Below, piece after piece: positions 2,490 through 64,000 of a stretch of DNA of 64,000 nucleotides. Source of the stretch: Candidatus Moraniibacteriota bacterium (GTDB lineage: Bacteria > Patescibacteriota > Minisyncoccia > Moranbacterales > GCA-2747515); contig CP065011.1 in assembly GCA_016699795.1 (NCBI GenBank), positions 883,449 through 947,448 of the forward strand, read 5' to 3'. Position 1 is the stretch's first letter; each line of letters opens with the position of its first letter. A model generated the notes under the pieces. The model saw only the letters and a list, made by a program, of their open reading frames with translations. It was not told the DNA's origin and made no database searches. Both the position numbers and the translations under genes were made by a program.

Positions 2490-3347
2490 TTACTTTTGTT
2501 CGCTATCATTTTCTGGATTTTTTCTTAATTCTTCTTCAATTTTTTCAATATCTTTTTTCCATTCCTCAAGGAGTTCAAGTGAGGAGGTTGTATCAGCGAC
2601 TTCTTCGTCGGTTGTGTTTGTATGAGAATCTGAAGAAAAAGAAATTTCTTCAGCAGAGGAGATTTCTTCCTCTTCATCATCATACACATCTTCTTCTGGT
2701 TCTTTTCGATAGGTTTTATAGGCAGGTTGTGGCTGAGGTTGTTGAGTTTGTTGAAAAATAGGGGAATCTCTGTCGAGAACTATAGGTCGTTCCTTAGCTT
2801 TGGCTACAATATTCTCAATAGCTCCCCAAGAAGAATCAATATCGCGAGGAAGTACTATAGCAGCCTCATCTCCTGGTTCGGCCCGAAAATAAGTAACAGA
2901 TGCAAGAAGAACGCGAAAAGGTCTTCCATTGGCAATTACATAATAATTACCTGTCTCGTCTTGCATAACGATACCTAAAGCATGTCGTCGTTCTACAGGA
3001 CCAACTTGTTTATAGATAAAAGAACCTTCTCCTGTTATAGTAAGTTTTAGGAAGTCACCTTCGACAAGTTTTGATTTAGAAGCATAGTTTGCAGGAACAG
3101 GATATTGTTTTCCATCTGTCCCAAACATAATTTGACCATCAAAAGTTCCTTGAACAATGGTAGTACCATCATCAAAACCTTCTATTTTATGACGTCGGCC
3201 AACTTTTTTCTTTCCTTCTAATTGTAAAAGCATTGCCTTAGCGCTTTGAATAGTTTTTTCTGCGCTCGTAATCATATCCCGAAGAGAATCTATTCTTTGA
3301 GATCGTTGCTGTTCATCTAATTGGGTGGTGTCGTTTGTATTTGTCAT
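2490..3347 (-). CDS. hypothetical protein with N-terminal coiled-coil and acidic low-complexity C-terminal tail
   Basis: 285-aa ORF. Central conserved-looking globular region and an E/D/S-rich tail. No recognisable family motif. Confidence 0.45.
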   Translation of the reverse strand: MTNTNDTTQLDEQQRSQRIDSLRDMITSAEKTIQSAKAMLLQLEGKKKVGRRHKIEGFDDGTTIVQGTFDGQIMFGTDGKQYPVPANYASKSKLVEGDFLKLTITGEGSFIYKQVGPVERRHALGIVMQDETGNYYVIANGRPFRVLLASVTYFRAEPGDEAAIVLPRDIDSSWGAIENIVAKAKERPIVLDRDSPIFQQTQQPQPQPAYKTYRKEPEEDVYDDEEEEISSAEEISFSSDSHTNTTDEEVADTTSSLELLEEWKKDIEKIEEELRKNPENDSEQK

Positions 3348-3907: not shown

Positions 3908-4279
3908 GGGAAAAGCATTGAAGTAGCGGTCCGACTGGACCCATTTACAACACAAGGTACTTGAGGTGTAAGTATCGAAAAGGAGAACACATGAATTGCG
4001 TATCTATTTATTTTTATTTTAAAAATAAATAAACGAAGTGATGTGTCCTTCTTTTACGAGAAGCGCCTCACGGCGTTTCTTTCTTTTTTGAAGAAAGAAA
4101 TTAGACACAAGAACATTAACAATTTTTATCATCATCACAATTTTGTGCGATTAGTCCCAGAACTTTACTTGAGTCTTTTCAGAGAAGTTAGTCAAGTAAA
4201 GGGAAGGTTCTCTTCGTCTAAGTTTTACTTGGACGTCGTAAACTTTGTTTTTCATAAGATTTTTCTCAAAAATCTTTTT

Positions 4280-5791
<1,512 letters not shown>

Positions 5792-7691: not shown

Positions 7692-8286
7692 TGAGATAGT
7701 TGTGTGTGGGGTGTTTATAAAATTATTTTTTGAGAGGGAATTCTCGAAGGGTTTGGGTGATGAGAGAGGATGTGAAAATTGAGAATTTTCTTAGAAAATA
7801 ATTTTATGAACGTAAAGAACTATCTCTAGTATAATCTCATTATTTTCCTTGTCAAATATTGCTAAAAATACGAGAAGAAAAAGAAAATCGCCTAGAGAAG
7901 AAATCTTCAGCATAAGCGATTTTTTTTGGGATTACCACCATAGGTAGTGCGCTCCTAACATAAGGTAGGTAGCACTCGCTAAGAGTGCTATGAGTGTGAA
8001 AATCCAAACACAACAAAATTTTTTGTACCTGGACCCTCAGAAAGAACCTTTAAAAGGATAGACATAGTCTCTCTCCTTGTTTTGTTTAAAGAACTTTCAA
8101 CTCCCATATTGTACCATATTTTAATATCTCTGTCAAAATAAAATTCTCTTTATAATCATAAAATAAGCTTTATTTTAAATAAAAAACGTTCTTTTTCGGA
8201 CGGTGCATAACTCACCCTTTACAACTTGACAAAAAGAGAGTAAAACAGTCTTTGTAAGAGGTTCTTTTTAATTAGGAGTACTTCAG

Positions 8287-8715
8287 ATGAAACGTTTGAT
8301 GTTTGATGAATACATGAGGAGTCTTTGGCGGATTCCTGAGGTTCACTTTCTATATCTTATTTTTCTTGCTCAAGACTGGAGAATTTTGAGTCAAGAGAAT
8401 AGGGAATATGCATGGAAGCGACTTGGGAAAGAACCGGAAATTCTTGACCTTGTGGATCAATGGATTGATCATGGTGGGCTTGAGCATTTTCAACGAGCAC
8501 ACCATCGGCTTTACGAACTTGCGAGAGAAAGAATAACTGAATCACATTTTATTCAGTTTCAAGTCTTCTTTACACTCTCGCACATACCTCTCAGAGAGTT
8601 AGCAAAACTTTCTGATGAGAATCCAGATAGTCTTTTCCAGCACTATGAGTGTTGGTTGTCTTCTCAAATGAGAAGAAGATTCTCTGGAATCGTTGCTCAG
8701 TATACTCTGAAGTGA
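8287..8715 (+). CDS. hypothetical protein (GC-rich island gene 1)
   Basis: 142-aa ORF at about 45% GC, versus roughly 30-38% in surrounding genes. No recognisable motif. Confidence 0.5.
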   Translation: MKRLMFDEYMRSLWRIPEVHFLYLIFLAQDWRILSQENREYAWKRLGKEPEILDLVDQWIDHGGLEHFQRAHHRLYELARERITESHFIQFQVFFTLSHIPLRELAKLSDENPDSLFQHYECWLSSQMRRRFSGIVAQYTLK

Positions 8716-9087: not shown

Positions 9088-9879
9088 ATGAAACTGTTGT
9101 GTACACTTTTTCTTTTCATCTGCAGTATTGCTGTAAATGGAGCAAATGCTAATTCTTTCGATTGGCATTCTACGTCAGCACCTCTATTTCGTGTGGCTGG
9201 AACAGAGTCTTTTGGAGTTATTTCAATCACTTCCAATTTCCCTGTTTCTCACCTTCGAAGAATTCATATGAATGGAGCTGTTATCCAATCGATGGATTTG
9301 GTAAAGGGAGTAAATAATGAGACGAGACCACCGACAGGAACTCCTATTTATGAAGGGGGACGATTTGGTGGAATCTTTGGAAGTCCTGCTATAGGTTCGA
9401 TCTTTATGGGGACAAAGAAGATCGAAGGGGGCGTCGTTTTTTTTGGAGGATGGGCATGTACTTCTCATTGGATATGTACCTACGGAGTATATAAAATTGG
9501 ATGTAAAGATGAAGTTTGTTCTGGATATACACCTGTACAAAAGGTGAGAGAGTATGCAAATCCTGTGAGTACGAGAGAGGCGTGGATAGATCTTTTGACT
9601 CTATCTTCAGACCAAAAAACTTTGGCTTGGCGACGGATAGAGCGAAATAAATCCGATGAAGGAAATCTTGTGACTGAACTTTGGAGAAAAGTTGAGAATG
9701 CAAGTCCTGTAAGGATCGCCGTTAATAATGCCGGAGGAGTTTCTTTGGCAGGAAGTCTTGAAATTTTTCCTGGCGTTAACGGGCAAATAACTATCGTCGC
9801 ACCACCTGGAAATGACACTCTAAATGGAAAAGCGGCCTTGTATTCGACTGCGTATGGATGGCGTGCATTAGCCCCATAA
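9088..9879 (+). CDS. secreted Gly/Cys-rich hypothetical protein (GC-rich island gene 2)
   Basis: 263 aa. N-terminal signal peptide MKLLCTLFLFICSIAVNGANA, a Gly-rich stretch and six Cys. About 46-48% GC. Confidence 0.55.
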   Translation: MKLLCTLFLFICSIAVNGANANSFDWHSTSAPLFRVAGTESFGVISITSNFPVSHLRRIHMNGAVIQSMDLVKGVNNETRPPTGTPIYEGGRFGGIFGSPAIGSIFMGTKKIEGGVVFFGGWACTSHWICTYGVYKIGCKDEVCSGYTPVQKVREYANPVSTREAWIDLLTLSSDQKTLAWRRIERNKSDEGNLVTELWRKVENASPVRIAVNNAGGVSLAGSLEIFPGVNGQITIVAPPGNDTLNGKAALYSTAYGWRALAP

Positions 9880-10944: not shown

Positions 10945-12105
10945 GTGAACATAAGAAATATGAAAAAATCTATTCGTTTTATTTTGGGTGTTCTTCTTCT
11001 CATTGGAGTTTTTGGTTCTGCGATATATTTTTCTCCAAAACAGGAAGTTTCTCAAGAGCAAGACACAACAACGAAGTCGATTGTTGTTACTACGCAGTCA
11101 ATAGAAGAAAGTCGTGTATTTCCTCAGCTAGTTACGTATCCTGCTACTGTCATTGGAAACCAAGAATCCGATATTGTTGCTAAATCAGCAGGAACTATTT
11201 CCGTTTTGAATATTTCGTTAGGGGACCATGTTCTTCCAGGATCTTTTTTGACAAAAATTGATGATACAGGAAATTCTCGTTCTTCTAACGTCGAAAATTT
11301 TCAGAGTAAAGAACTTCAGCAAGCTAATATCAATAAAGAAAAAGCTCAAAAATCTGTTGATATTGCTGAAAGAAATTATCAAAGTCTAAAAAAGATTTAT
11401 GAAGAACAAGAAGATGATGACACTCTTTTAAAAACAGTTACAAAAGATCAAGTAAGATCGGCAAAACTTCAGATTGATATGACAAAACTTGAAAAAGAAA
11501 ATGCCGAAATTGCTCTTCAGAGTTTATTAGATAATCACCTTGTCACAAGCCCCCTTGAAGGCTATGTGACGAATATTTTAGTTTCTGTTGGGGATTATGT
11601 TACTCCCGGAGAAACATTGGCCACGATAAGCAAAACAAAGAGTGCGAAGCTCCGACTTTATGTAGATCAAAATCATTTTACTTTTTTTCAAAAAGGTACA
11701 GTGTTTAGTTTTATGGATGGAAATAGAAAAGTGTATAAAGCACGTGTGGAAAATATCTCACCACAAGCAGATCTTATAACACGACGTTTTCTCGTAGAAG
11801 CTTCTCCTGAAGAAAAAACAGAAGAGTTATTATTGGGAACTATTGTTTCGGCAGAATTTTCTTTTGAACAAAAGCCTCAAATGGAAGAAAATATCCTTCT
11901 TCCTATTTCTGCAATTACATTTGGACAAAATGAAAATAATATTTTTATCGTAGAGAATGAACGAGCTCGACGCGTTGTTGTGGAAGTGTCTCGTGTAGTC
12001 GGAGAAATGGCTGAAATAAAAATAGATCTCCCTCGAGATGCAAAGGTTATTGTTTCTGGAAATAAATTAGTACGGGATGGAGATAATGTCTCTCTCTCGA
12101 AATAA
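10945..12105 (+). CDS. efflux RND transporter periplasmic adaptor (membrane fusion protein, HlyD-like)
   Basis: 386 aa. N-terminal TM anchor, coiled-coil hairpin and a lipoyl/beta-barrel segment (TSPLEGYVTNILVSVGDYVTPGETLATI). Directly precedes the RND permease. Confidence 0.75.
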   Translation: MNIRNMKKSIRFILGVLLLIGVFGSAIYFSPKQEVSQEQDTTTKSIVVTTQSIEESRVFPQLVTYPATVIGNQESDIVAKSAGTISVLNISLGDHVLPGSFLTKIDDTGNSRSSNVENFQSKELQQANINKEKAQKSVDIAERNYQSLKKIYEEQEDDDTLLKTVTKDQVRSAKLQIDMTKLEKENAEIALQSLLDNHLVTSPLEGYVTNILVSVGDYVTPGETLATISKTKSAKLRLYVDQNHFTFFQKGTVFSFMDGNRKVYKARVENISPQADLITRRFLVEASPEEKTEELLLGTIVSAEFSFEQKPQMEENILLPISAITFGQNENNIFIVENERARRVVVEVSRVVGEMAEIKIDLPRDAKVIVSGNKLVRDGDNVSLSK

Positions 12106-12110
12106 TATAT

Positions 12111-15100
12111 ATGGAAAAAAAATCCCAACAATTTTCTTCCGACTCTCTTTATCTTAAACAGTTAGAGTTTCGTCCAGAATTACGAAAAACATGGCTTAAT
12201 TTTTTTGTAGAGAACTTTCGCGTTGTTACTCTTCTCGTACTTCTTATTTCTTTTTGGGGAATATATGCTTTTTTGAATTTGCCTCGAGAATCAAATCCGG
12301 AGGTAAAAATTCCCGTTGCGGTTATTACCGTTACCTACCCAGGCGTTTCTCCAACAGATATGGAGGAATTGGTGACGAAAAAAATCGAAACAAGTATTTC
12401 AAGTATAAGTGGTATAAATAGAGTTACTTCAAATTCTTCTAACTCTTTTTCTTCTGTAGCGGTTGAATTTGAAGCAAATCAGGATGTGGATGATTCTATT
12501 CGAAACTTGCGAGATAAACTTGCAACTATTCGTTCAGATATTCCTGAAGAAGCGAATGATCCCCAGCTTATGGAGATTTCTTTTGATAATACTCCCGTAG
12601 TTACTTTTGCTCTTACTGGACCATACGATGATTTCTCTTTGCGTACTTGGGGAGAAAAAATTCAATCTGAATTGGAAAAAATTCCTGATGTTCGAGAGGT
12701 GACTGTTTCAGGGGGAGATCAAACAGAATTTGAAGTTGCTTATGATCCTCAAAAATTAGCATTTTTTGGTATTAGCGTGGATCAGGCAAATCAAACAATA
12801 AGTGGAACAAACCGTGCTGTTCCTGCTGGAAATTTTGAAGGAAAGGAATTTAACTATCCTGTTCGTGTGGAAGGGCGATTTTTTGATGTGAAATCTATAG
12901 GAGAAATTCCTTTGTCCCATACGCAAGACGGGGCTATTATTTTTGTAAAAGATGTAGCAACTGTTTCTGAAAAAGCTATTGAAAAAACGATACTCTCTCG
13001 AATTTCTGCAGGAGGAGAAGAACCAAGTAGTGCTGTTATTATTCAAGTGGTGAAAAGAACAGGGGGGAATATTATTGATGTAGTGAGTGAGTCAAAAAAG
13101 CGTATAGACTCGATGATAAAAACCTTTCCTTCGGGTGTTGCTTATGAGACGACATTGGATATGTCTGAGCAAATTAATGAAGATTTTTCTCAGTTAACGC
13201 ACGATTTTTTCTTAACAGTGGGATTAGTTTTTTTCATTCTTTTTCTTTTCGTTGGTCTTAAAGAAGCTCTTGTGGCGGGCATTGCTATTCCATTAGTTTT
13301 TTTCATTACTTTTGGAATAATGCTTTCTTTGGGAACTTCTCTTAACTTTCTTTCTCTTTTTTCTCTCCTTCTTTCTCTTGGTCTCTTGGTAGATGATGCC
13401 ATTGTTGTTGTTTCAGCTATAAAACAATATATGCGTACGGGAAAATTTACACCAGAGGAAGCTGTTCTTTTAGTTTTAAATGATTATAAAATAGTTCTTC
13501 TTTCTACAACGCTCGCTACAGTATGGGCTTTCTTACCATTACTTATGGCCAGTGGAATGATTGGGGCATTTATTAAATCAATTCCTATTACAGTATCTAT
13601 AACATTATCATCTTCTCTCTTAGTAGCTATAGCGATCAATCCTCCAATGGCAGCATTGTTGGAACGTGTTCGTTTAACGAAAGGAGTCTTTTTTTCTTTC
13701 TTTTTCATTCTTTTTGGAATGGGTATGTTTGGGGCGACACAAAATGTTCTTTGGGGGTATGCTCTCGCTCTTATTTCTTTCATTCTTTCCGTGGGAATGC
13801 TCCGATGGTATTTTTTCAAGGGAGTTCGAATCCTTAAAATGAATCAAGATCTTGTAGATAAAGAGTCAATAGATGATGACCTCATAAAAGAAAAACTTGC
13901 CTATCAAGGAAATAGAGAAGCGCATAGTTCTTTTAAAGATCGCCTTATTCATGGCATTATTTCATTCGATCACATCCTTCCTTTGTATGAGAAATATCTT
14001 CGTAAAGTGCTTTTGACAAAAAAACGTCAGATGCTTTTTCTGGGAGGAGTTTTTGTAATATTTGTTCTTTCTGTGTTATTACCCGTTACTGGCGTAGTAA
14101 AAACGGAATTCTTTCCAGAATCCAATGGTAATACTCTTTCTATTTCATTTCGAGCTCCAGCAGGAGTTGTTATCGACCAGACAGATAAGGTGGTTCAAAA
14201 AGTTGAAGAACGACTTCTTGGTTTTCAGGAAATAGAGAATTTCTCTACTTTAGTAGGAAATCCAGGAGCTTCTAGTGGTGGTGGGGTGTCTCAGAATACG
14301 TCGAATGTTGCTTCTATTTCTGTTCAATTAGTTAATCCCGAAGAGAGAGAAAAAACATCGGAACAAATTGCGCAGAGTATCCGTGATACTATCAAAGATA
14401 TTCAGGGCGCAACTATCGTAGTAGAAGCACCAAGAGGAGGACCTCCTTCCGGAGCAGCTTTTCAGGCTGAAATTATAGGAGATGATTTACAGACATTAGA
14501 TAAGATTGCTAATGATCTCAAGTTAATTTTGAAAGAAATACCTGGCGTTGTGAATAGCGATATTTCTCTGAGGGATTCTTCTGCGGAATATACTTTTTCT
14601 TTAGATACATCTAAAATGGAGCTATATAATTTGAATGCTCTCTTAGTGGGAAGTACTCTTCGAACAGCTATTTCTGGAACAAAAGTCACTACGGTTATTC
14701 GTGAAAATAAAGATATTGATGTGGTTGCACGTTTTGATGAAACGAGGATACCAACATTAGATGCTATACAGAATTTACAAATTCTTAATACACAAAAACA
14801 ACCAGTATTTTTAAAAGATGTAGCTACTATACAACTTATTCCTTCGGTGGATTCTATTTCTCGTATTGATCAAAAAAGAACGGTTCTTCTTACCTCGGGA
14901 GTAACAACGATGATTAGCTCTACACAACTCGTAAAAGTTTTTCAAGAGAAAATGGCTAAAGAATATACACTTCCTGATGGATATTCTATTTCTTATGGTG
15001 GAGAAAATGAGCAAAATGCAGAATCGGTACTTTCTATTATTCAAGCAATGGCTATCGCAGGAATATTAATTGTTTCAACCTTAGTAATTCAATTTAATTC

Positions 15101-23980: not shown

Positions 23981-24517
23981 TTATTTGGGGGGAATTATTT
24001 GGTTGAGGACCGCTATAATAGGTCGCGCATTTTCTCTCACAAACCTCGAGATTTCTCTTGAGGCTGATTGAGAAATATCTTTCCCGAATGCATTTGATTG
24101 TTCGTATTCATTACGTTTTTCTTTCCAGAAACGAAGAGTTTGAATCCCCATTCCAGAATTACCTTTTATAAAGATAGTTTCGGGAGTGGGAATTTTTTCT
24201 AATTCTATACCTTTTGGTTGGAATACGTTTTTATTTTGCTCTACGTCGATGAGGAAGCCTTGGAGAACTTTTAAGTTTTTTATGGTTTGATGGAACTGCC
24301 CATAATTAACTTCTTCGAGTTCGAGAATGAGGTTTTTAATTTTTCTATCTTGCCAAAAATGTAAGGCAGTGAAGAAAAGAAGAATCCCATCAAAAGGATT
24401 CATTCGTAAGACTTGAGAAAGATCCTCTTGGAGTTTTCGAAGCCTTCCTTTTTCGGAAACACATTTTTTGAGAGGTTTTTTATAAAGGGAGCGCATCCAT
24501 TTTTTGCAAGTACTCAT
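23981..24517 (-). CDS. hypothetical protein
   Basis: 178-aa ORF convergent with thyA. Basic N-terminus. No recognisable family. Confidence 0.45.
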   Translation of the reverse strand: MSTCKKWMRSLYKKPLKKCVSEKGRLRKLQEDLSQVLRMNPFDGILLFFTALHFWQDRKIKNLILELEEVNYGQFHQTIKNLKVLQGFLIDVEQNKNVFQPKGIELEKIPTPETIFIKGNSGMGIQTLRFWKEKRNEYEQSNAFGKDISQSASREISRFVRENARPIIAVLNQIIPPK

Positions 24518-24793: not shown

Positions 24794-25342
24794 GTGAGAA
24801 AGGACAGAAAAATGAAAAAAATAGTAGCAGAATGTGCAGAAATTCCAGATGAATACTTTCATGAAAAAGGTGACTCTGGAAAATGTCACTCCATTCCAAA
24901 CGATGGATTTGGATTGGAAGAAGAGAATTTCTTTTTTAATGAAAATAAAAAAAAAGCCTTCCCGATTATGGATCCTTGGATGTTCCTTCCTCAAGAAGAA
25001 AAAGAAAATGAGGAACAAAAGAAATATCCGAGAAAAATGATTCTGGGAATTGTGGGTATCATTCTTTTTTGTGTGGGCATTCTACTTTTTTCAAGAGTGC
25101 TCGGTGTTGATGGAGTAGATATTCCTGACACACTAACACAAGAAGAGCGGGAGCTGGTACAACCAATAATGGAGGAAGAAGATTATCTCGAAGATCCAAA
25201 TCTTCCTTTACCAGAACCCTGTGTCTATGGAGATTGGGAAAATAAATTGATGTGCCCATCTCCAGAGAGGAATCAATTCCTCGAAGAATTTGAGGAAAAA
25301 TCATACAAGATTCCCTCCCGTCCGGTTATTCGGAGGGTGTAA
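24794..25342 (+). CDS. hypothetical single-pass membrane protein
   Basis: 182 aa with a central TM helix (ILGIVGIILFCVGILLF) and acidic flanks. Confidence 0.4.
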   Translation: MRKDRKMKKIVAECAEIPDEYFHEKGDSGKCHSIPNDGFGLEEENFFFNENKKKAFPIMDPWMFLPQEEKENEEQKKYPRKMILGIVGIILFCVGILLFSRVLGVDGVDIPDTLTQEERELVQPIMEEEDYLEDPNLPLPEPCVYGDWENKLMCPSPERNQFLEEFEEKSYKIPSRPVIRRV

Positions 25343-37032: not shown

Positions 37033-37956
37033 ATGTTTGATGTTGTTGTTATTGGAGGTGGTCCTGCTGGAGTAGCTGCTGGAATATATTCGGCAAGGAA
37101 GCAAATGAATACTTTATTTCTTTCTGAGTCTATCGGGGGGCAATCCTCGGTGAGTGCGACTATAGAGAATTGGATAGGAGATATTTCCTTGAAAGGTTTT
37201 GAGTTTGCTCAAAAATTAGAATCTCATCTTCGTGCTCAAGAAAGTATCGATATTCGCCTTATGACGCGAGTAGAAAAAATAAAATCTTTTTCAAAAGGAT
37301 TTTTAGTAACTACTCAGAAAGGGGACGTATTTGAAACACTTTCTGTTATTATCGCAACGGGAGGAAGTCACCGACATCTTAATGTTCCTGGAGAAGAAAA
37401 ATTTATAGGAAAAGGTGTTGTTTTCTGCTCTACTTGTGATGCTCCTTTTTTTCGAAATAAAACTGTCGCTGTCGTGGGTGCTGGTAATAGTGGCTTGGAG
37501 GCATGTCAAGATCTTTTTCCCTATGCAAAAGAAATTTTTCTTCTCTCAAATACAGATCATTTGGGTGGAGACGTTGTAAATCAAGATGTTGTAATTGGAA
37601 ATAATAAAGTTACTTTGGTGTATAATAGTGTAACAAAAGAGATTCTTGGGGATACAGTCGTGACGGGTATTCGGTATGAAGACACGGTGACGAATGAAGA
37701 CAAAATACTTGACGTAGATGGTGTTTTTGTAGAAATCGGAATGGTTCCAAATTCTCTTTTTGTAAAGGATATGCTAGAGGTGAATTCGTACGGAGAAATA
37801 GTTATCGATCATCGTACTATGGCTACATCAGTTGAAGGAATCTTTGCAGCTGGAGATGTGACGGATATTATATATAGACAAAACAATATTGGGGCGGGTC
37901 AGGGGTCTATAGCTGCTTTATCAGCATATGATTGGACAAAGAAAAAGCAGAGATAA
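37033..37956 (+). CDS. trxB: thioredoxin-disulfide reductase-like FAD/NAD(P) oxidoreductase
   Basis: Two Rossmann motifs (VVVIGGGPAGVAAG, VAVVGAGNSGLEA) and the redox-active CSTCDAPFF (CxxC). Confidence 0.7.
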   Translation: MFDVVVIGGGPAGVAAGIYSARKQMNTLFLSESIGGQSSVSATIENWIGDISLKGFEFAQKLESHLRAQESIDIRLMTRVEKIKSFSKGFLVTTQKGDVFETLSVIIATGGSHRHLNVPGEEKFIGKGVVFCSTCDAPFFRNKTVAVVGAGNSGLEACQDLFPYAKEIFLLSNTDHLGGDVVNQDVVIGNNKVTLVYNSVTKEILGDTVVTGIRYEDTVTNEDKILDVDGVFVEIGMVPNSLFVKDMLEVNSYGEIVIDHRTMATSVEGIFAAGDVTDIIYRQNNIGAGQGSIAALSAYDWTKKKQR

Positions 37957-37995
37957 GTATTTTCGTTTTTCCTTCATAAAATGAAATAAAAAAAC

Positions 37996-39174
37996 ATGAA
38001 AAAAGAAGATAAAATTTTAAAGAGAAGGCCAGAATACCGGACAATTTTTATTGGTTCCGATCATGCTGGGTATGAGTACGCTCATCGTCTTATACAAGAT
38101 CTTAAGAAAAAAGGATATCAAGTTATTGATTGTATTGTTGGGGAGAAGTCAAAAACTGATGATTATCCGGATAGGGTTTTTGATCTGTATAGAGCTATGG
38201 CGAGAGAAAATTTTTCAGGTGAAGGTATTTTATTTTGTTCAAGTGGTGAAGGGGTATGTATAAGTGCCAATAAATTACCAGGAATTCGTGCTGTGGAGGC
38301 TCGCGATAGCTTGGAGGCTCGAAAATCGAAAGAACATAATAATGCAAATGTTCTTTGTTTGGGAGCGAAAGAACTTTCTTATGAAGAATCTTTTGAATTA
38401 GCTATGGAGTGGCTTTTGGCAGTGTTTTCCGAAGAAACGAGACATGAGAGGCGCTGTGAAAAAATACAGAGGTTGGAATATGCTAGTTTTGTTTATAAAA
38501 GTCGACAGATGCCAAAGCAACATATTATTCCTGCCATTCTTTCTTCTCGATACCATGAAATTTCTGAAAAATTACACACATTGTATGGTTTGGTACAGTG
38601 GGTACAAATAGATGTTATTGATGATTCTAATGTATCAGGAAGAACAGTACTTCCTTTTGAAATGAATCTTTTAGAATGGCCCTTTCTTTTCGAGGCTCAT
38701 CTTATGGTGGCCAATCCTATGAAATACATAGATACTTGTAAACATGCAGGATTTTCTCGGATTATTTTTCATCATGAAGTAGAAGAGGATTCGGAGCTCA
38801 TTATTAATGCTATCCATTCTGCTGGAATGGAAGTGGGAATTGCTATTAATCCCAAAACTCCTTTGGTAACATTAGAGCCTTTTATAAAGAAAATTGATCG
38901 CATTCTTCTCCTTGGTGTTCATCCTGGAAAATCAGGACAGATATTATTTCCTGAAACAAGAGAAAGAATAAAAATACTAAGAAAAAAAATATACAGAAAT
39001 CCTTCACTTTTTGTGGATGGTGGTGTAAATGAAAAAAATATAATGTCTATCGTCAATGCTGGAGCTGATGGTGTTTGTGTTTCGAGTGCACTTTTTGAAG
39101 GAAGAAAAGATGCTGACATAGCAAAAAGACTACAATACTTGGAAAGTTTTTTTGAAAATAATGAAAATATATGA
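37996..39174 (+). CDS. bifunctional ribose-5-phosphate isomerase B / ribulose-phosphate 3-epimerase fusion
   Basis: N-terminal ~150 aa is RpiB/LacAB-like (IFIGSDHAGYEY, GILFCSSGEGVCISANK). The C-terminal ~220 aa is Rpe-like TIM barrel (VQIDVIDDSNV, HLMVANP, GVHPGKSGQ, FVDGGVN). Confidence 0.75.
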   Translation: MKKEDKILKRRPEYRTIFIGSDHAGYEYAHRLIQDLKKKGYQVIDCIVGEKSKTDDYPDRVFDLYRAMARENFSGEGILFCSSGEGVCISANKLPGIRAVEARDSLEARKSKEHNNANVLCLGAKELSYEESFELAMEWLLAVFSEETRHERRCEKIQRLEYASFVYKSRQMPKQHIIPAILSSRYHEISEKLHTLYGLVQWVQIDVIDDSNVSGRTVLPFEMNLLEWPFLFEAHLMVANPMKYIDTCKHAGFSRIIFHHEVEEDSELIINAIHSAGMEVGIAINPKTPLVTLEPFIKKIDRILLLGVHPGKSGQILFPETRERIKILRKKIYRNPSLFVDGGVNEKNIMSIVNAGADGVCVSSALFEGRKDADIAKRLQYLESFFENNENI

Positions 39175-39587
39175 AAATACAAATGAAAAAGGCTTCCGTT
39201 CTTGCGTTCACCCTTATTATGATGGGAGTTCTCCTTTTGGCAGGACTTTCTCTCTCAGAGGCAACACTAAGAGATAGAAGAACGGCTTTGGATTCCGGTA
39301 ATAGCTTGCAGGCACTTCAAATCGCTGAATCTGTGGGGAATACTGCTATAGAGAAATTAACAGCTAATACAAGTGATGTCGCAACAATAGAGACTGTTAT
39401 AGAAAATGGAACATCCATTATTTGTTCTTCTGGTCCTTCTGGCGTAGGTACATACGATATTCTTTTTTATAAAATAAATGAGATACGGATGGAATGTGGT
39501 GAGGCTGCAGAGGATGTTGCAAAGATAAAAGTATATGGAAAATATCGAGGGACGGCTCGAGTTATAGATCGGGCAATTGCCAAATAA
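39171..39587 (+). CDS. PilX-N-type type IV pseudopilin-like protein (paralog 1)
   Basis: 138 aa. N-terminus KKASVLAFTLIMMGVLLLAGLSLS...SLQALQIAESVGNTAIEKL fits the PilX_N pattern (hydrophobic helix, then AxQxAE[SA]G). Confidence 0.55.
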   Translation: MKIQMKKASVLAFTLIMMGVLLLAGLSLSEATLRDRRTALDSGNSLQALQIAESVGNTAIEKLTANTSDVATIETVIENGTSIICSSGPSGVGTYDILFYKINEIRMECGEAAEDVAKIKVYGKYRGTARVIDRAIAK

Positions 39588-39602
39588 CTGAAAGATAAAA
39601 AT

Positions 39603-40613
39603 ATGAAAAATAAAAGAAATAGAAAAGGTTCCATCCTTGCTTTTACTCTTATTATGCTAAGCATTCTTCTTCTTGCGGGAATTTCTCTTTCGGGAGTTGT
39701 TCTGACTGATAGAAAGATGGCTATAAACTCAGGAAAAAGTTTACAAGCACTTCAAACAACAGAGAGTGGAATTGCAAATGTTGTGGATATAATAAAGAGA
39801 AAAGAACAGACTAATAATTTAGAAGATACCATTGGGAATACTGTGGAGGATTGGGGAGGGACTTGCAGTAATGGAGTTATTGAGGGATTGATACCAGATT
39901 CTCAAATTTATTTTCGTAATGAGGCGGGAAATGACACGCTTGATTGTAGTGATCCTCTTCATAAAATAGGAAGTATTCGTTCTTATGGAAAAGAAGCTCA
40001 ATCTGCTCGAGCAGTTGAAGTTAATATAAGAAAGTATGTATTTTTTTGTGGATATCATAAAATAAAGGATAGCGATGAAACTATTTATTATACTCAAAAA
40101 ATAGGTGATCAGTGCTGGATGAAACAAAATCTTACTGTGGGAGAGCAGATCGATGGAAATGAATTACCAAATGGATCAGAAATAGAAAAATATTGTCCTG
40201 ATGATGAGGAGGATAAATGTACACAATATGGTGCTTTGTATTCTTTTGGAGAAGCAAAAGAGGCTTGTCCTTCCGGCTGGCATCTTCCTACAGACGGTGA
40301 GTGGACTATTTTAGAAAAAAAAATGGGAAATTGTGGAGCTTCTAGGGATGATGGCTGGGACTGCGCACCTGCTGGAAAAGAATTTATAAATGAAAACAAT
40401 GAGCCACGACAATTAATATTCCCTCTTTCTGGAAAAAGAAACACAAACACACCTCCTCGTTTTGAATCTCCAGGATTTGATGGTTATTATTGGACTGCTA
40501 ATGATAGCGGTAATACAGCAACATACAGACAAATACAGGCAATTAGAGAAGATGTAAACAAAGCTAGTATGAACAAAAGTTCCGGATTAAGTGTTCGCTG
40601 TATAAAGAATTGA
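39603..40613 (+). CDS. PilX-N-type pseudopilin-like protein fused to a FISUMP-like C-terminal domain (paralog 2)
   Basis: 336 aa. N-terminus KGSILAFTLIMLSILLLAGISLSG...SLQALQTTESGIANV parallels the upstream paralog. The C-terminal 180 aa carry QCWMKQNL, GALYSF, CPSGWHLPTDGEW and GYYWTAN, strongly resembling the TIGR02145 domain. Confidence 0.6.
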   Translation: MKNKRNRKGSILAFTLIMLSILLLAGISLSGVVLTDRKMAINSGKSLQALQTTESGIANVVDIIKRKEQTNNLEDTIGNTVEDWGGTCSNGVIEGLIPDSQIYFRNEAGNDTLDCSDPLHKIGSIRSYGKEAQSARAVEVNIRKYVFFCGYHKIKDSDETIYYTQKIGDQCWMKQNLTVGEQIDGNELPNGSEIEKYCPDDEEDKCTQYGALYSFGEAKEACPSGWHLPTDGEWTILEKKMGNCGASRDDGWDCAPAGKEFINENNEPRQLIFPLSGKRNTNTPPRFESPGFDGYYWTANDSGNTATYRQIQAIREDVNKASMNKSSGLSVRCIKN

Positions 40614-40846
40614 CCTTGGGACTTTTTTGTTATAGACTAAGGAGGAAGACGGTAGTGCGTTGTCTGTGAGGTTTTTGTAAGAAATAGTTCCTCTTTATTT
40701 CTTACAAACGAAATCGATCGAAGTAGTATTACTTGTAAAAGTATAAAGAAAAGATCGGGCCCCGCGGATGACGTGGTATCGTTTTTTCTTTATAACAAAA
40801 GGAAAGAGAGGGCTTGCTTTTTATGAAATAATATGGTACTTTTCTG

Positions 40847-63098: not shown

Positions 63099-64000
63099 AT
63101 GAGAGAAAAAAAACTTAATTACAGGATAAGTACGTTCGTAGCTTTTCTCTTCCTTTTTTTGAATGTTTTTTCTGTTTCTGCACAAACTCTTGAGCCAAAA
63201 GACTTTCCTCGAGAAGAATTCGATAGAATAAAAGCAGAAAATCCAGAGATGATACAAGAAATGGAAATAATTCGTATAGCGAGCGTGAATGTATATAATC
63301 CTGTAGTGGTATCAAAAGAAGGAACTTCTATAGAAGTTGCTTATGATATAAACAACAGAGAGGGGATACAAACAGATATCATAACTTCATTGCTTCTTCT
63401 TAATAAAGAGGGAATACCATTATTTCAAAATGTTTTCAAAGATCCTATCTCTCTTAAAAATGATGAAACAAAAAAAATCATTCAAAAACTAGAACTTCCT
63501 TTCTTTCCAAATGGTACGTATGATATTGGTATAGAAGTTTCAAACTCTTCTGGCTTAACTCTTGCTCAGAGTAGTATTAAAGATGTAGAAATTGCAGGTA
63601 TAACTACAGGATATGTAAAGATTGAAAGTTGTCGTTTGACAATAAATAAAGAAGAAAAAGTGTATAGTCCATCAGAAGGTATTGATGTTCTCCCTGTTGA
63701 AGAATTATATGTTTCTTGTTTTTATAAAAGCACCTTCCTTGAATCAGTAACAGTAAAACCAGAATTTACTGAATATAGAAGATCTCTTTTTGGAGAAGCT
63801 CTTAATGTCTACAAAAGAGATTCCTTTGTTCTTGAGCCAAATAAAGAGAAGGAAGTTTCTTTTTTGATAGAAAAAAATACACTACCTCAATCCTATACAC
63901 AAAATCTTGTTTTGAAAGATGAGAGTAACAAGATCATTTCTACTGAAGCTCAATTGCATTATGTTGTTTCTGGAGAATCTGCAACTATTCAAAATATTGT
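63099..64000 (+). CDS. secreted hypothetical protein (3'-truncated by window end)
   Basis: The open frame runs from ATG 63099 to the window edge with no stop. The signal peptide MREKKLNYRISTFVAFLFLFLNVFSVSAQT is followed by a beta-rich sequence. It is absent from the ORF track because it has no in-window stop. Confidence 0.5.
   Translation, partial: MREKKLNYRISTFVAFLFLFLNVFSVSAQTLEPKDFPREEFDRIKAENPEMIQEMEIIRIASVNVYNPVVVSKEGTSIEVAYDINNREGIQTDIITSLLLLNKEGIPLFQNVFKDPISLKNDETKKIIQKLELPFFPNGTYDIGIEVSNSSGLTLAQSSIKDVEIAGITTGYVKIESCRLTINKEEKVYSPSEGIDVLPVEELYVSCFYKSTFLESVTVKPEFTEYRRSLFGEALNVYKRDSFVLEPNKEKEVSFLIEKNTLPQSYTQNLVLKDESNKIISTEAQLHYVVSGESATIQNI

What the first reader, a model, noticed from the sequence alone, without database searches (positions are those of the whole stretch)
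39171..40613. Tandem PilX-N-type pseudopilin paralogs, the second fused to a Fibrobacter-type 'major paralogous domain' (FISUMP-like)
Two adjacent genes share a nearly superimposable N-terminus: K(A/G)S(V/I)LAFTLIM..LLLAG(L/I)SLS, then ~15 aa, then SLQALQ(I/T)(A/T)ES(V/G). That is the architecture of minor pilins with a PilX N-terminal domain. The second gene adds a ~180-aa Cys/Trp-rich C-terminal domain with the motifs CWMKQNL, GALYSF, CPSGWHLPTDGEW and GYYWTAN, which I recognise as the TIGR02145 Fibrobacter succinogenes major paralogous domain. This domain is normally found in secreted lipoproteins, not on a pilin scaffold. A pseudopilin carrying such a module would be a candidate pilus-tip adhesin or cell-contact factor. 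Signal peptidase I lies immediately downstream. No pilus assembly ATPase, platform or prepilin peptidase is present in the window.
Basis: partly seen in the sequence, partly recalled or inferred. Interest (0 to 1): 0.72.

Follow-up and report, generated by a model that had tools for sequence, protein, structure and literature searches.

The report
Tandem PilX-type pilins, one lectin-tipped
Two adjacent genes of an uncultured ultrasmall (CPR, Moraniibacteriota) bacterium encode PilX/GspK-type minor pilins, and the second carries a C-type-lectin-like "FISUMP" domain that is probably shown at a pilus tip to bind other cells; this is a good candidate adhesin, but an example of an already recognised design ("modular pilins").

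Summary
Window 39171-39587 (P1, 138 aa) and 39603-40613 (P2, 336 aa) are tandem paralogs. All of P1 aligns to P2 residues 7-144 (39% identity, E 2e-20). P2 adds a FISUMP domain (PF09603 110.7 bits; TIGR02145 102.2 bits).

The N-module is a PilX/GspK-class pilin module:
- PilX_N scores sit at the Pfam cutoff.
- The junction is [KR][G/A]|S-[VI]-L-x-[FY], with no Glu5.
- AlphaFold predicts a 60-residue helix on a small sheet.
- A distant family member sits in the PilX slot of a real type IV pilus operon.

The N-module family has 3,352 representative clusters and carries swappable adhesin-type C-terminal modules; FISUMP occurs in 7 of 136 scanned. Canonical pilin-FISUMP fusions also exist. Saccharibacterial PilX1/PilX2 are a functional precedent.

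Still inferred: prepilin processing, pilus incorporation, adhesion. The window has no pilus machinery, and I could not reach the rest of the genome.

Verdict: new member of a known kind, of moderate interest.

The parts
39171..39587 (+). P1: short PilX/GspK-class minor pilin paralog (138 aa), a pilin module only (NCBI locus tag IPN70_04305)
39171..39194 (+). P1 basic leader MKIQMKKA, ending in Ala at position -1; the ATG overlaps the rpiB-rpe stop codon (ATGA)
   Evidence: Sequence. The family junction has G104/A30 at -1 and S134 at +1, out of 136 members.
39195..39257 (+). P1 hydrophobic alpha1-N segment (residues 9-29, SVLAFTLIMMGVLLLAGLSLS), with Phe at +5 instead of Glu
   Evidence: Maximum Kyte-Doolittle 19-residue window at residues 10-28, mean 2.49. 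Predicted as part of one continuous helix.
39603..40613 (+). P2: bimodular PilX-class minor pilin with a C-terminal FISUMP domain (336 aa; IPN70_04310)
   Evidence: ORF. Identical to NCBI MAG protein P0001. Pfam and NCBIfam hits. AF2 model pLDDT 83.9.
39603..39629 (+). P2 basic leader MKNKRNRKG, ending in the canonical Gly at position -1
   Evidence: Sequence. Gly is the majority state at -1 in the family (106 of 157; 104 of 136).
39630..40031 (+). P2 pilin module (residues 10-143): hydrophobic alpha1-N (10-30), long alpha1 helix to residue 69, small beta-sheet (87-141), conserved Cys88/Cys115 pair
40032..40073 (+). Linker between the pilin module and the FISUMP domain (residues 144-157), with lower model confidence
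   Evidence: pLDDT blocks of 65-73 for residues 141-160. The P1 alignment ends at P2 residue 144.
40074..40610 (+). FISUMP / Fib_succ_major domain (residues 158-336), C-type-lectin-like fold; the putative ligand-binding module
40762..40786 (+). Terminator-like hairpin plus T-run between P2 and lepB (weak consensus match)
   Evidence: A conserved promoter-like block follows upstream of lepB in both the window and L003.

Best explanation
P1 and P2 are tandem paralogous type IV minor (pseudo)pilins of the PilX/GspK class in a Candidatus Moraniibacteriota (CPR) genome.

Each has a short basic leader, a prepilin-type junction ([KR][G/A]|S-[VI]-L-A-F, with no Glu5) and a ~21-residue hydrophobic alpha1-N. 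That segment continues into a ~60-residue helix packed on a four-stranded sheet with one conserved Cys pair. P2 is a modular pilin: the same pilin module, a ~14-residue linker, and a C-type-lectin-like FISUMP domain.

The most likely mechanism is as follows. A prepilin peptidase encoded elsewhere cleaves the leader. The proteins then join the minor-pilin priming complex and end up at the tip of a type IV pilus. There the FISUMP module of P2 binds a ligand, probably a glycan or another surface polymer, on a host cell or substrate. P1 would be an unarmed alternative cap or a partner.

Shown: sequence features, domain identities, predicted folds, the modular make-up of the family, and operon context in one relative. 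Inferred: processing, polymerisation, tip position and adhesive function.
For: - Paralogy over the whole module: E 2e-20.
- PilX_N scores at the cutoff for P2 (24.6 and 25.8 against 25.5) and just below it for P1. PilX_N is found in 76 of 136 family representatives, best E 1.7e-10. JGI names relative P0013 'Tfp pilus assembly protein PilX'.
- Junction conservation in 136 members: -1 is G in 104 and A in 30; +1 is S in 134; +3 is L in 133; +5 is F in 78 and Y in 48, never E.
- Family member P0134 follows GspH-like, PilV-like and PilW/GspJ-like minor pilins, in a cluster with PilT, PilC, two pilins and PilD. P0134 hits P2 at E 1.6e-9 and P1 at E 1.3e-8.
- FISUMP is called with high scores. Its fold matches bacterial adhesin and variable-protein CLec domains.
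- The scaffold carries other adhesin-type modules elsewhere: Laminin_G_3, VWA, Peptidase_S74, Kelch, H_lectin.
- Precedents: TM7x PilX1 and PilX2 have lectin-like C-terminal domains, and PilX2 is needed for host binding (PMC11623550). Modular pilins are established in S. sanguinis (PMC8179133).
- The tandem pair and its synteny are conserved in a second genome, L003.
Against: - No pilus machinery or other pilins lie in the 64-kb window or within 10 kb (8 kb for L011/L012; less where the contig ends) of the gene in the closest relatives. Only 1 of about 9 distinct family contexts is a T4P operon.
- PilX_N scores are borderline, and neither N_methyl nor TIGR02532 hits either protein.
- P1 and most close relatives have Ala, not Gly, at -1.
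- Small residues at positions 26, 28 and 30 could form an SPase-I site.
- No sequence relative has a solved structure.
- I could not examine the rest of the genome. There is no experimental evidence for this protein.
Confidence: 0.62

Rival explanations
1. Cell-surface lectin anchored by a pilin-like helix. The N-terminal hydrophobic helix serves only as a membrane anchor, whether or not it is cleaved by a prepilin peptidase. P2 would display its FISUMP domain on the cell body without ever being polymerised into a pilus. P1 would be a module-less relative of unknown role.
For: The gene location is orphan and conserved next to housekeeping genes (trxB, rpiB-rpe, lepB or thioredoxin) in 5 genomes. 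The window holds no pilus genes. CPR cells are monoderm-like, so a membrane-anchored protein of about 300 aa could reach the surface (general knowledge). The TM7x PilX proteins lack a predicted PilD signal.
Against: The whole pilin module is conserved across 3,352 clusters, including the globular beta-sheet and the Cys pair, not just a TM helix. The [G/A]|S junction is nearly invariant. A family member sits in the PilX slot of a minor-pilin operon. The canonical pilin-FISUMP protein P0014 is also an orphan gene, so an orphan location is not diagnostic.
Confidence: 0.2
2. Ordinary Sec-secreted proteins. The N-terminus would be a cleavable SPase-I signal peptide (cleavage after about Ser28 or Ser30), releasing soluble P1 and a soluble lectin P2. 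On this reading the neighbouring lepB might be more than coincidence.
For: The n-h-c layout includes small residues at positions 26 (A in 101), 28 (S in 73, G in 52) and 30 (A in 57, S in 45) across 136 members. lepB is immediately downstream in the window and in L003.
Against: The n/h boundary is almost invariant ([KR][GA]S[VI]L), which Sec signals do not require. The hydrophobic stretch is predicted as the first third of one continuous, confidently modelled helix that is integral to the fold. The PilX_N model spans it. Position 30 is Met in 16 members. lepB adjacency is absent in L001, L004 and L011, where thioredoxin follows instead. lepB also has its own conserved promoter-like block after a terminator-like hairpin.
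Confidence: 0.07
3. Target of a diversity-generating retroelement (DGR). The FISUMP domain of P2 would be a variable protein whose C-terminal region is hypermutated by a DGR located elsewhere in the genome. This is compatible with the pilin reading and would add a mechanism to it.
Against: No TR-like copy of the P2 3' end exists anywhere in the 64-kb window. No reverse transcriptase or Avd is present in the window. The L005 TR does not resemble the P2 3' end. The variable domain of P0124 is not a FISUMP domain by NCBIfam at E <= 0.01.
Confidence: 0.07

Closest known systems
PilX (T4aP) / GspK-XcpX (T2SS) minor (pseudo)pilins
   Different: There is no alpha-domain inserted in the sheet as in GspK (per PMC8179133). 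P2 has a C-terminal FISUMP module instead. Here the genes are orphan, with no machinery nearby. +1 is Ser. There is no detectable sequence match to any solved pilin.
Saccharibacteria (TM7x) PilX1 and PilX2
   Same: They are CPR minor pilins named PilX and are the largest pilins of their loci. They carry C-terminal lectin-like accessory domains and have non-canonical signal peptides. PilX2 is required for efficient host binding and is proposed as the tip adhesin (PMC11623550).
   Different: Their modules are a beta-jelly-roll and an RCC1 beta-propeller, not FISUMP. Their genes lie inside T4P loci.
Modular type IV pilins (S. sanguinis PilB-vWA, PilC-ConA lectin; survey of IPR012902 proteins)
   Same: A pilin module plus a grafted functional module joined by a short linker, presumed to be tip-exposed and adhesive. 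The survey lists IPR012902-IPR011871 with 40 proteins (PMC8179133). P0014 is a directly verified GFTLIE-pilin plus FISUMP example.
   Different: Those have the canonical N_methyl motif with Glu5. P1 and P2 lack it (no PF07963 or TIGR02532 hit), so PilX_N-type modular pilins would be invisible to that survey.
FISUMP / Lcl-C / DUF1566 C-type-lectin-like domains of bacterial surface proteins (Legionella Lcl, Treponema TvpA, Bdellovibrio Bd2740, Yersinia InvE)
   Different: Among the other FISUMP hits, 25 of 120 N-termini look like lipoboxes and only 1 is a canonical pilin. Here the carrier is a PilX-type pilin module.

Membership tests
Type IV pilin superfamily, PilX/GspK class | Class III-type N-terminus: short basic leader, G (or A) at -1, then about 20 hydrophobic residues | tested here: met
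   P2 reads MKNKRNRKG|SILAFTLIMLSILLLAGISLS and P1 reads MKIQMKKA|SVLAFTLIMMGVLLLAGLSLS. Across the family, -1 is G in 104 and A in 30, and +1 is S in 134, out of 136.
Type IV pilin superfamily, PilX/GspK class | Absence of Glu5, the hallmark of the GspK/PilX subclass | tested here: met
   +5 is Phe in both P1 and P2. Across 157 members, +5 is F in 95 and Y in 50, and never E.
Type IV pilin superfamily, PilX/GspK class | Pfam PilX_N (PF14341) at or above the gathering score of 25.5 bits | tested here: inconclusive
   P2 scores 24.6 bits as the full protein and 25.8 bits as the isolated module. P1 scores 21.9 bits. Of 136 family representatives, 76 hit at E <= 1e-3.
Type IV pilin superfamily, PilX/GspK class | Pilin fold: a long N-terminal helix packed on an antiparallel beta-sheet | tested here: met
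Type IV pilin superfamily, PilX/GspK class | Genomic association with T4P machinery or other minor pilins | tested here: not met
   None in the 64-kb window or in the loci of the closest relatives. It is met only for the distant member P0134 in L007/L008.
Type IV pilin superfamily, PilX/GspK class | Cleavage by a prepilin peptidase and incorporation into a filament | not testable with these tools
   This needs SignalP or PilFind plus experiment. Conservation favours the G/A|S site, but an SPase-I-like site at residues 26-30 cannot be excluded.
Canonical type IV pilins (N_methyl, IPR012902 / TIGR02532 / PF07963) | GFxxxE prepilin cleavage/methylation motif | tested here: not met
   Neither PF07963 nor TIGR02532 hits P1 or P2 at E <= 1. 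The regex finds no G[FM]T[LI]xE pilin in the window.
FISUMP / Fib_succ_major (TIGR02145, PF09603) | HMM score above the curated cutoff over the full model length | tested here: met
   PF09603 scores 110.7 bits against a cutoff of 33.9, covering model positions 2-187 of 187. TIGR02145 scores 102.2 bits against 41.65, covering positions 7-176 of 176.
FISUMP / Fib_succ_major (TIGR02145, PF09603) | C-type-lectin-like fold shared with Lcl_C/DUF1566 | tested here: met
Modular (bimodular) type IV pilin sensu Raynaud et al. 2021 | [quoted passage not shown] | tested here: met
   Pilin module at residues 10-143, linker at 144-157, FISUMP at 158-336. However, the N-terminal signature is PilX_N rather than the IPR012902 used to define that set.
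DGR variable protein | A cognate template repeat with adenine-specific mismatches, plus RT/Avd | tested here: not met
   The window has no TR-like repeat of the P2 3' end and no RT or Avd. A remote DGR elsewhere in the genome is not testable. It is met for relative P0124 in L005, except that no RT was found within 10 kb.

The most novel reading that the evidence does not exclude
P1/P2 belong to a very large, essentially unannotated family of PilX-type 'cassette' tip pilins: 3,352 clusters at 50% identity, with no N_methyl signature. Such proteins would be missed by surveys based on that signature. In this family the pilin module is a constant carrier, and the C-terminal receptor-binding module is exchanged between lineages. 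The module can be FISUMP, ConA-like, VWA, S74, Kelch, H-lectin or unknown Cys-rich domains, even at one syntenic locus. In at least one relative the module is hypermutated by a DGR. On this reading these proteins are the host-range determinants of CPR episymbionts, analogous to phage tail-fibre tips. The FISUMP module of P2, a known DGR-target fold, may itself be diversified by a retroelement elsewhere in the 1.19-Mb genome.
Probability: 0.25. Interest if true: 0.7.

Novelty: new member of a known kind. Interest (0 to 1): 0.36.

Why it matters
How ultrasmall CPR/Patescibacteria recognise and attach to their hosts is largely unknown. Type IV pili are the leading candidates, and in Saccharibacteria a PilX-type minor pilin with a lectin-like module is needed for efficient host binding (PMC11623550).

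This locus gives a concrete candidate adhesin for an uncultured Moraniibacteriota lineage. The FISUMP domain (residues 158-336) could be expressed on its own and screened on glycan arrays or against candidate host cells.

More broadly, the PilX-type carrier family is large and carries many different adhesin-type modules, and one relative appears to be DGR-diversified. Together these points suggest a general, evolvable host-recognition device. The design principle itself (modular pilins, lectin-tipped PilX) is already published, so this case extends the principle rather than overturning it.

Tried and rejected
1. DGR in the window. Fib_succ_major is a DGR target class, so I looked for a template repeat (repeat finder over the whole window; sensitive blastn of the P2 3' half) and for RT/Avd (Pfam scans). 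I found none and rejected a DGR for this window.

2. A functional link to lepB. The adjacency is conserved only in the sister genome L003, and the other relatives have thioredoxin there. A terminator-like hairpin and a conserved promoter-like block separate P2 from lepB. I treat the adjacency as coincidental synteny.

4. Sequence-profile searches of the PDB with the N-module (A4, 8 sequences; A6, 136 sequences) found no pilin or any other real hit.

5. The word-indexed homolog search suggested a tiny family of 21 proteins. The exhaustive HMMER search showed 3,352 clusters, so the 'rare family' impression was an artefact of method sensitivity.

6. Attempts to reach the rest of the genome, or more contexts, failed. 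The genome contigs and metagenome-contig scans returned only one contig end (L013) and one 2.6-kb fragment (L016). This MAG is not in the representative collection, so pilB/C/D elsewhere could not be checked.

7. Rfam on the 233-nt P2-lepB spacer gave only a chance-level hit (E 0.62).

8. The mapping of IPR011871 to FISUMP could not be confirmed from the paper library. It rests on my memory of InterPro.

9. The Pam pilus paper (bioRxiv 2026) describes an unrelated donor-strand-exchange system.
Full report
**What is there**

The window comes from a low-GC genome (about 35% GC) with strong positive GC skew. It carries a 16S rRNA gene at 4279-5789. Both target proteins are identical to NCBI entries from a 'Candidatus Moraniibacteriota bacterium' MAG on a 1,186,598-bp contig: IPN70_04305 and IPN70_04310.

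P1 (39171-39587, 138 aa) and P2 (39603-40613, 336 aa) lie on the + strand, 15 nt apart. The P1 ATG overlaps the stop codon of an rpiB-rpe fusion gene. The flanking genes are:
- upstream: a Mur ligase, thioredoxin reductase, and the RpiB-Rpe fusion;
- downstream: signal peptidase I (Peptidase_S26, 155 bits), HisRS and a HIT protein.

**The observation**

The similarity is not confined to the N-terminus. P1 aligns end to end with P2 residues 7-144 (39% identity, E 2e-20). P2 is therefore a P1-like module, plus a linker, plus about 180 extra residues. No third paralog and no canonical G|FTLxE pilin occurs in the window.

**Domain identities**

P2 residues 158-336 are a full-length FISUMP domain. 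PF09603 scores 110.7 bits against a cutoff of 33.9. TIGR02145 scores 102.2 bits against 41.65.

The N-termini hit Pfam PilX_N over the whole 51-position model, but at the threshold of 25.5 bits:
- P2 scores 24.6 bits in the full protein and 25.8 bits as the isolated module.
- P1 scores 21.9 bits.

Neither protein hits N_methyl or TIGR02532. This is expected for the Glu5-less PilX/GspK subclass.

**The family**

A word-indexed search with the N-module profile found only 21 proteins. An exhaustive HMMER search of 1.84 billion representatives found 3,352 clusters at E <= 1e-3, 913 at E <= 1e-10 and 114 at E <= 1e-30. The module always occupies residues ~1-140 in those hits. Total lengths among the family members held (157 proteins) run from 78 to 519 aa, with a median of 233.

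In 136 aligned representatives the junction is almost invariant:
- basic residues come first;
- -1 is G in 104 and A in 30;
- +1 is S in 134;
- +3 is L in 133;
- +5 is F in 78 and Y in 48, never Glu.

Two cysteines (C88 and C115 in P2) and the C-terminal motif K-S-x-G...R-A-V-E-V are also conserved.

Of those 136 representatives, 76 hit PilX_N, with a best E of 1.7e-10. The C-terminal extensions are heterogeneous and adhesin-like. The counts among 136 are Fib_succ_major 7, Laminin_G_3 6, VWA 3, Peptidase_S74 3, Lcl_C 3, and Kelch, H_lectin, Sialidase-N and cEGF 1 each. Many others have no Pfam match.

The seven FISUMP-bearing members are P0001 (this protein), P0002, P0225, P0253, P0196, P0204 and P0164. 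Their pilin modules are 24-36% identical to that of P2 in the A6 alignment, apart from the ortholog P0002 at 51%. The fusion is therefore recurrent, not unique.

**Predicted structure**

With a 60-sequence alignment, the P2 model has mean pLDDT 83.9. It shows one continuous helix (8-69), a small sheet (87-141), a lower-confidence linker, and a compact C-terminal domain. The P1 model (pLDDT 71.8) has helix 8-65 and four strands.

**Genomic context**

The closest relatives occupy the same chromosomal slot, in the order trxB, rpiB-rpe fusion, PilX-like gene or genes:
- In L001/L002, L004 and L011/L012 there is a single gene. It carries a different, unassigned Cys-rich C-terminal domain (truncated in L011) and is followed by thioredoxin.
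- In L003 there is the same tandem pair as here (134 aa, then 339 aa with FISUMP), followed by lepB.

Pairwise identities show two orthologous pairs: P1 with P0122 at 59%, and the P2 module with the P0002 module at 51%. P1 against P2 is only 43%. The duplication therefore predates the split of these two genomes. The P2 pilin module is as close to the single-copy P0013-type genes (49-53%) as to its own ortholog. This points to module replacement at a syntenic locus.

None of these loci has pilus genes within 10 kb of the gene (8 kb for L011/L012; less where the contig ends). In contrast, the distant member P0134 (profile E 1.9e-15) is the last gene of a textbook cluster, which runs in this order:
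- a PilT fragment;
- PilC;
- a pilin (KKGFTLVELL);
- GT2;
- a membrane protein;
- a pilin (KKGFTLIELL);
- PilD;
- a GspH-like minor pilin (GGFSLIEI);
- a PilV-like minor pilin (EGFSFIEV);
- a PilW/GspJ-like minor pilin (SGFSAIEM);
- P0134 (KKA|SVLAVTLI, no Glu5).

That is the FimU-PilV-PilW-PilX order. P0134 directly hits P2 (E 1.6e-9) and P1 (E 1.3e-8). No other T4P probe from that cluster hits anything in the window.

Other family contexts are miscellaneous: L006, L010, and L009, which lies next to TrbL/PrgI-like genes. The canonical pilin plus FISUMP protein P0014 (Falkowbacteria) is also an orphan gene. Scattered modular-pilin genes therefore appear normal in CPR.

**Mechanism**

Shown:
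- a PilX/GspK-class pilin module in both proteins;
- a CLec-like FISUMP module on P2;
- a carrier family that displays many adhesin-type modules;
- operon membership of one relative.

Established knowledge:
- GspK/PilX-type subunits lack Glu5 and cap the minor-pilin priming complex at the filament tip (summarised in PMC8179133, and PMC11623550).
- T4P genes are nearly universal in CPR (PMC11623550).
- Modular pilins present grafted modules for adhesion (PMC8179133).
- TM7x PilX2, a PilX-type pilin with a lectin-like propeller, is needed for efficient host binding.

Inferred: P1 and P2 are processed at [A/G]|S. They then join the tip complex of a T4P encoded elsewhere, where P2 presents FISUMP as a ligand-binding head. 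P1 is an unarmed alternative cap or a partner.

I put 0.62 on this whole chain, and about 0.9 on the structural classification alone.

**Rivals**

A membrane-anchored, non-polymerised surface lectin (0.20) is the main rival. It is favoured only by the orphan location.

A Sec/SPase-I secreted protein (0.07) cannot be formally excluded, because positions 26, 28 and 30 are small residues in most members. Several points argue against it: the invariant n/h junction, the integral continuous helix, and the fact that lepB adjacency is not conserved.

A DGR target (0.07) is not supported in this window.

**Comparison and novelty**

The design is known from several sources:
- lectin-tipped PilX1/PilX2 in Saccharibacteria;
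- a verified canonical pilin plus FISUMP protein, P0014.

What is specific here is the PilX_N-type carrier, which has no N_methyl signature and so is invisible to the published survey. Also specific are the tandem armed and unarmed pair and the conserved orphan position. I file it as a new member of a known kind.

No paper in the library mentions FISUMP in connection with pilins.

**Side finding**

In relative locus L005, the family member P0124 has a VR at its 3' end and a TR copy 387 nt downstream, just before a bAvd gene. Sixteen of 20 TR adenines are mismatched, against 9 of 56 other bases. The TR has AAC-rich codons, and the two copies share an identical 20-nt 3' anchor.

A 1-nt indel and the absence of an RT within 10 kb leave it unclear whether this DGR is active. 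None of the papers listed by my searches for DGRs together with pilins or type IV pili connects DGRs to type IV minor pilins.

Noticed in passing
L005:10588-10658 (VR), 10975-11046 (TR), 11083-11433 (bAvd): A relative of P1/P2 (P0124, a PilX-type pilin with a small Cys-rich C-terminal domain) looks like a DGR target. Sixteen of 20 TR adenines are mismatched, against 9 of 56 other positions. The TR has AAC-rich codons, the two copies share an identical 20-nt 3' anchor, and a bAvd gene lies directly downstream. There is a 1-nt indel (possibly a long-read homopolymer error) and no RT within 10 kb. None of the papers listed by my searches links DGRs to type IV minor pilins.
   Followed up: partly
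L005:9484-10419 vs 11484-12446, and L005:8850-9650 / 13000-13620: A ~2-kb segmental duplication gives a second PilX-like gene (~12002-12747) with a different C-terminal domain. Both copies are flanked by arrays of ~50-80-nt repeats (five families, D3-D6 and D8) whose adjacent copies are spaced 232-240 nt apart (e.g. CCAAGTGCCGAACATCCTGGACCGCCAC...). The nature of these repeats is unknown.
   Followed up: no
window 37033-39174 with L001, L003, L004, L011: The synteny trxB, then an RpiB-Rpe fusion protein (LacAB_rpiB plus Ribul_P_3_epim in one 384-392-aa ORF), then the PilX-like gene(s) is conserved in five genomes. Thioredoxin often follows immediately. The Cys-rich extracellular pilins thus sit between thioredoxin-system genes. 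Whether this is more than inherited gene order is unknown.
   Followed up: partly
window 40614-40846: The 233-nt spacer after P2 contains an SD-like AAGGAGGAA (about 40639-40647) that is conserved in L003 and has no obvious ORF after it. It also contains an AT-rich perfect hairpin (~40685-40716), a GC-rich terminator-like hairpin (40762-40776) and a conserved promoter-like block before lepB. Rfam finds nothing.
   Followed up: partly
window 4279-5789: There is a complete 16S rRNA gene but no 23S or 5S anywhere in the 64-kb window, which suggests an unlinked rRNA operon. ORFs called inside and around it are spurious.
   Followed up: no
L009:757-4875 and 7829-8467: Another family member (P0126) lies about 3 kb from PrgI- and TrbL-like (type IV secretion/conjugation-type) genes rather than T4P genes.
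   Followed up: no
L011:8001-8657: In Moranbacteria MAG GCA_010014565.1 the syntenic PilX-like gene is only 142 aa and is followed by a separate 68-aa ORF. It may be a frameshifted or truncated C-terminal module.
   Followed up: no
window 2490-3347(-), 9088-9879(+), 23981-24517(-), 24794-25342(+), 63099-63998(+): Several sizeable ORFs have no Pfam match at E <= 1e-3. Two of them have signal-peptide-like N-termini (9088-9879 and 63099-63998). I did not examine them further.
   Followed up: no
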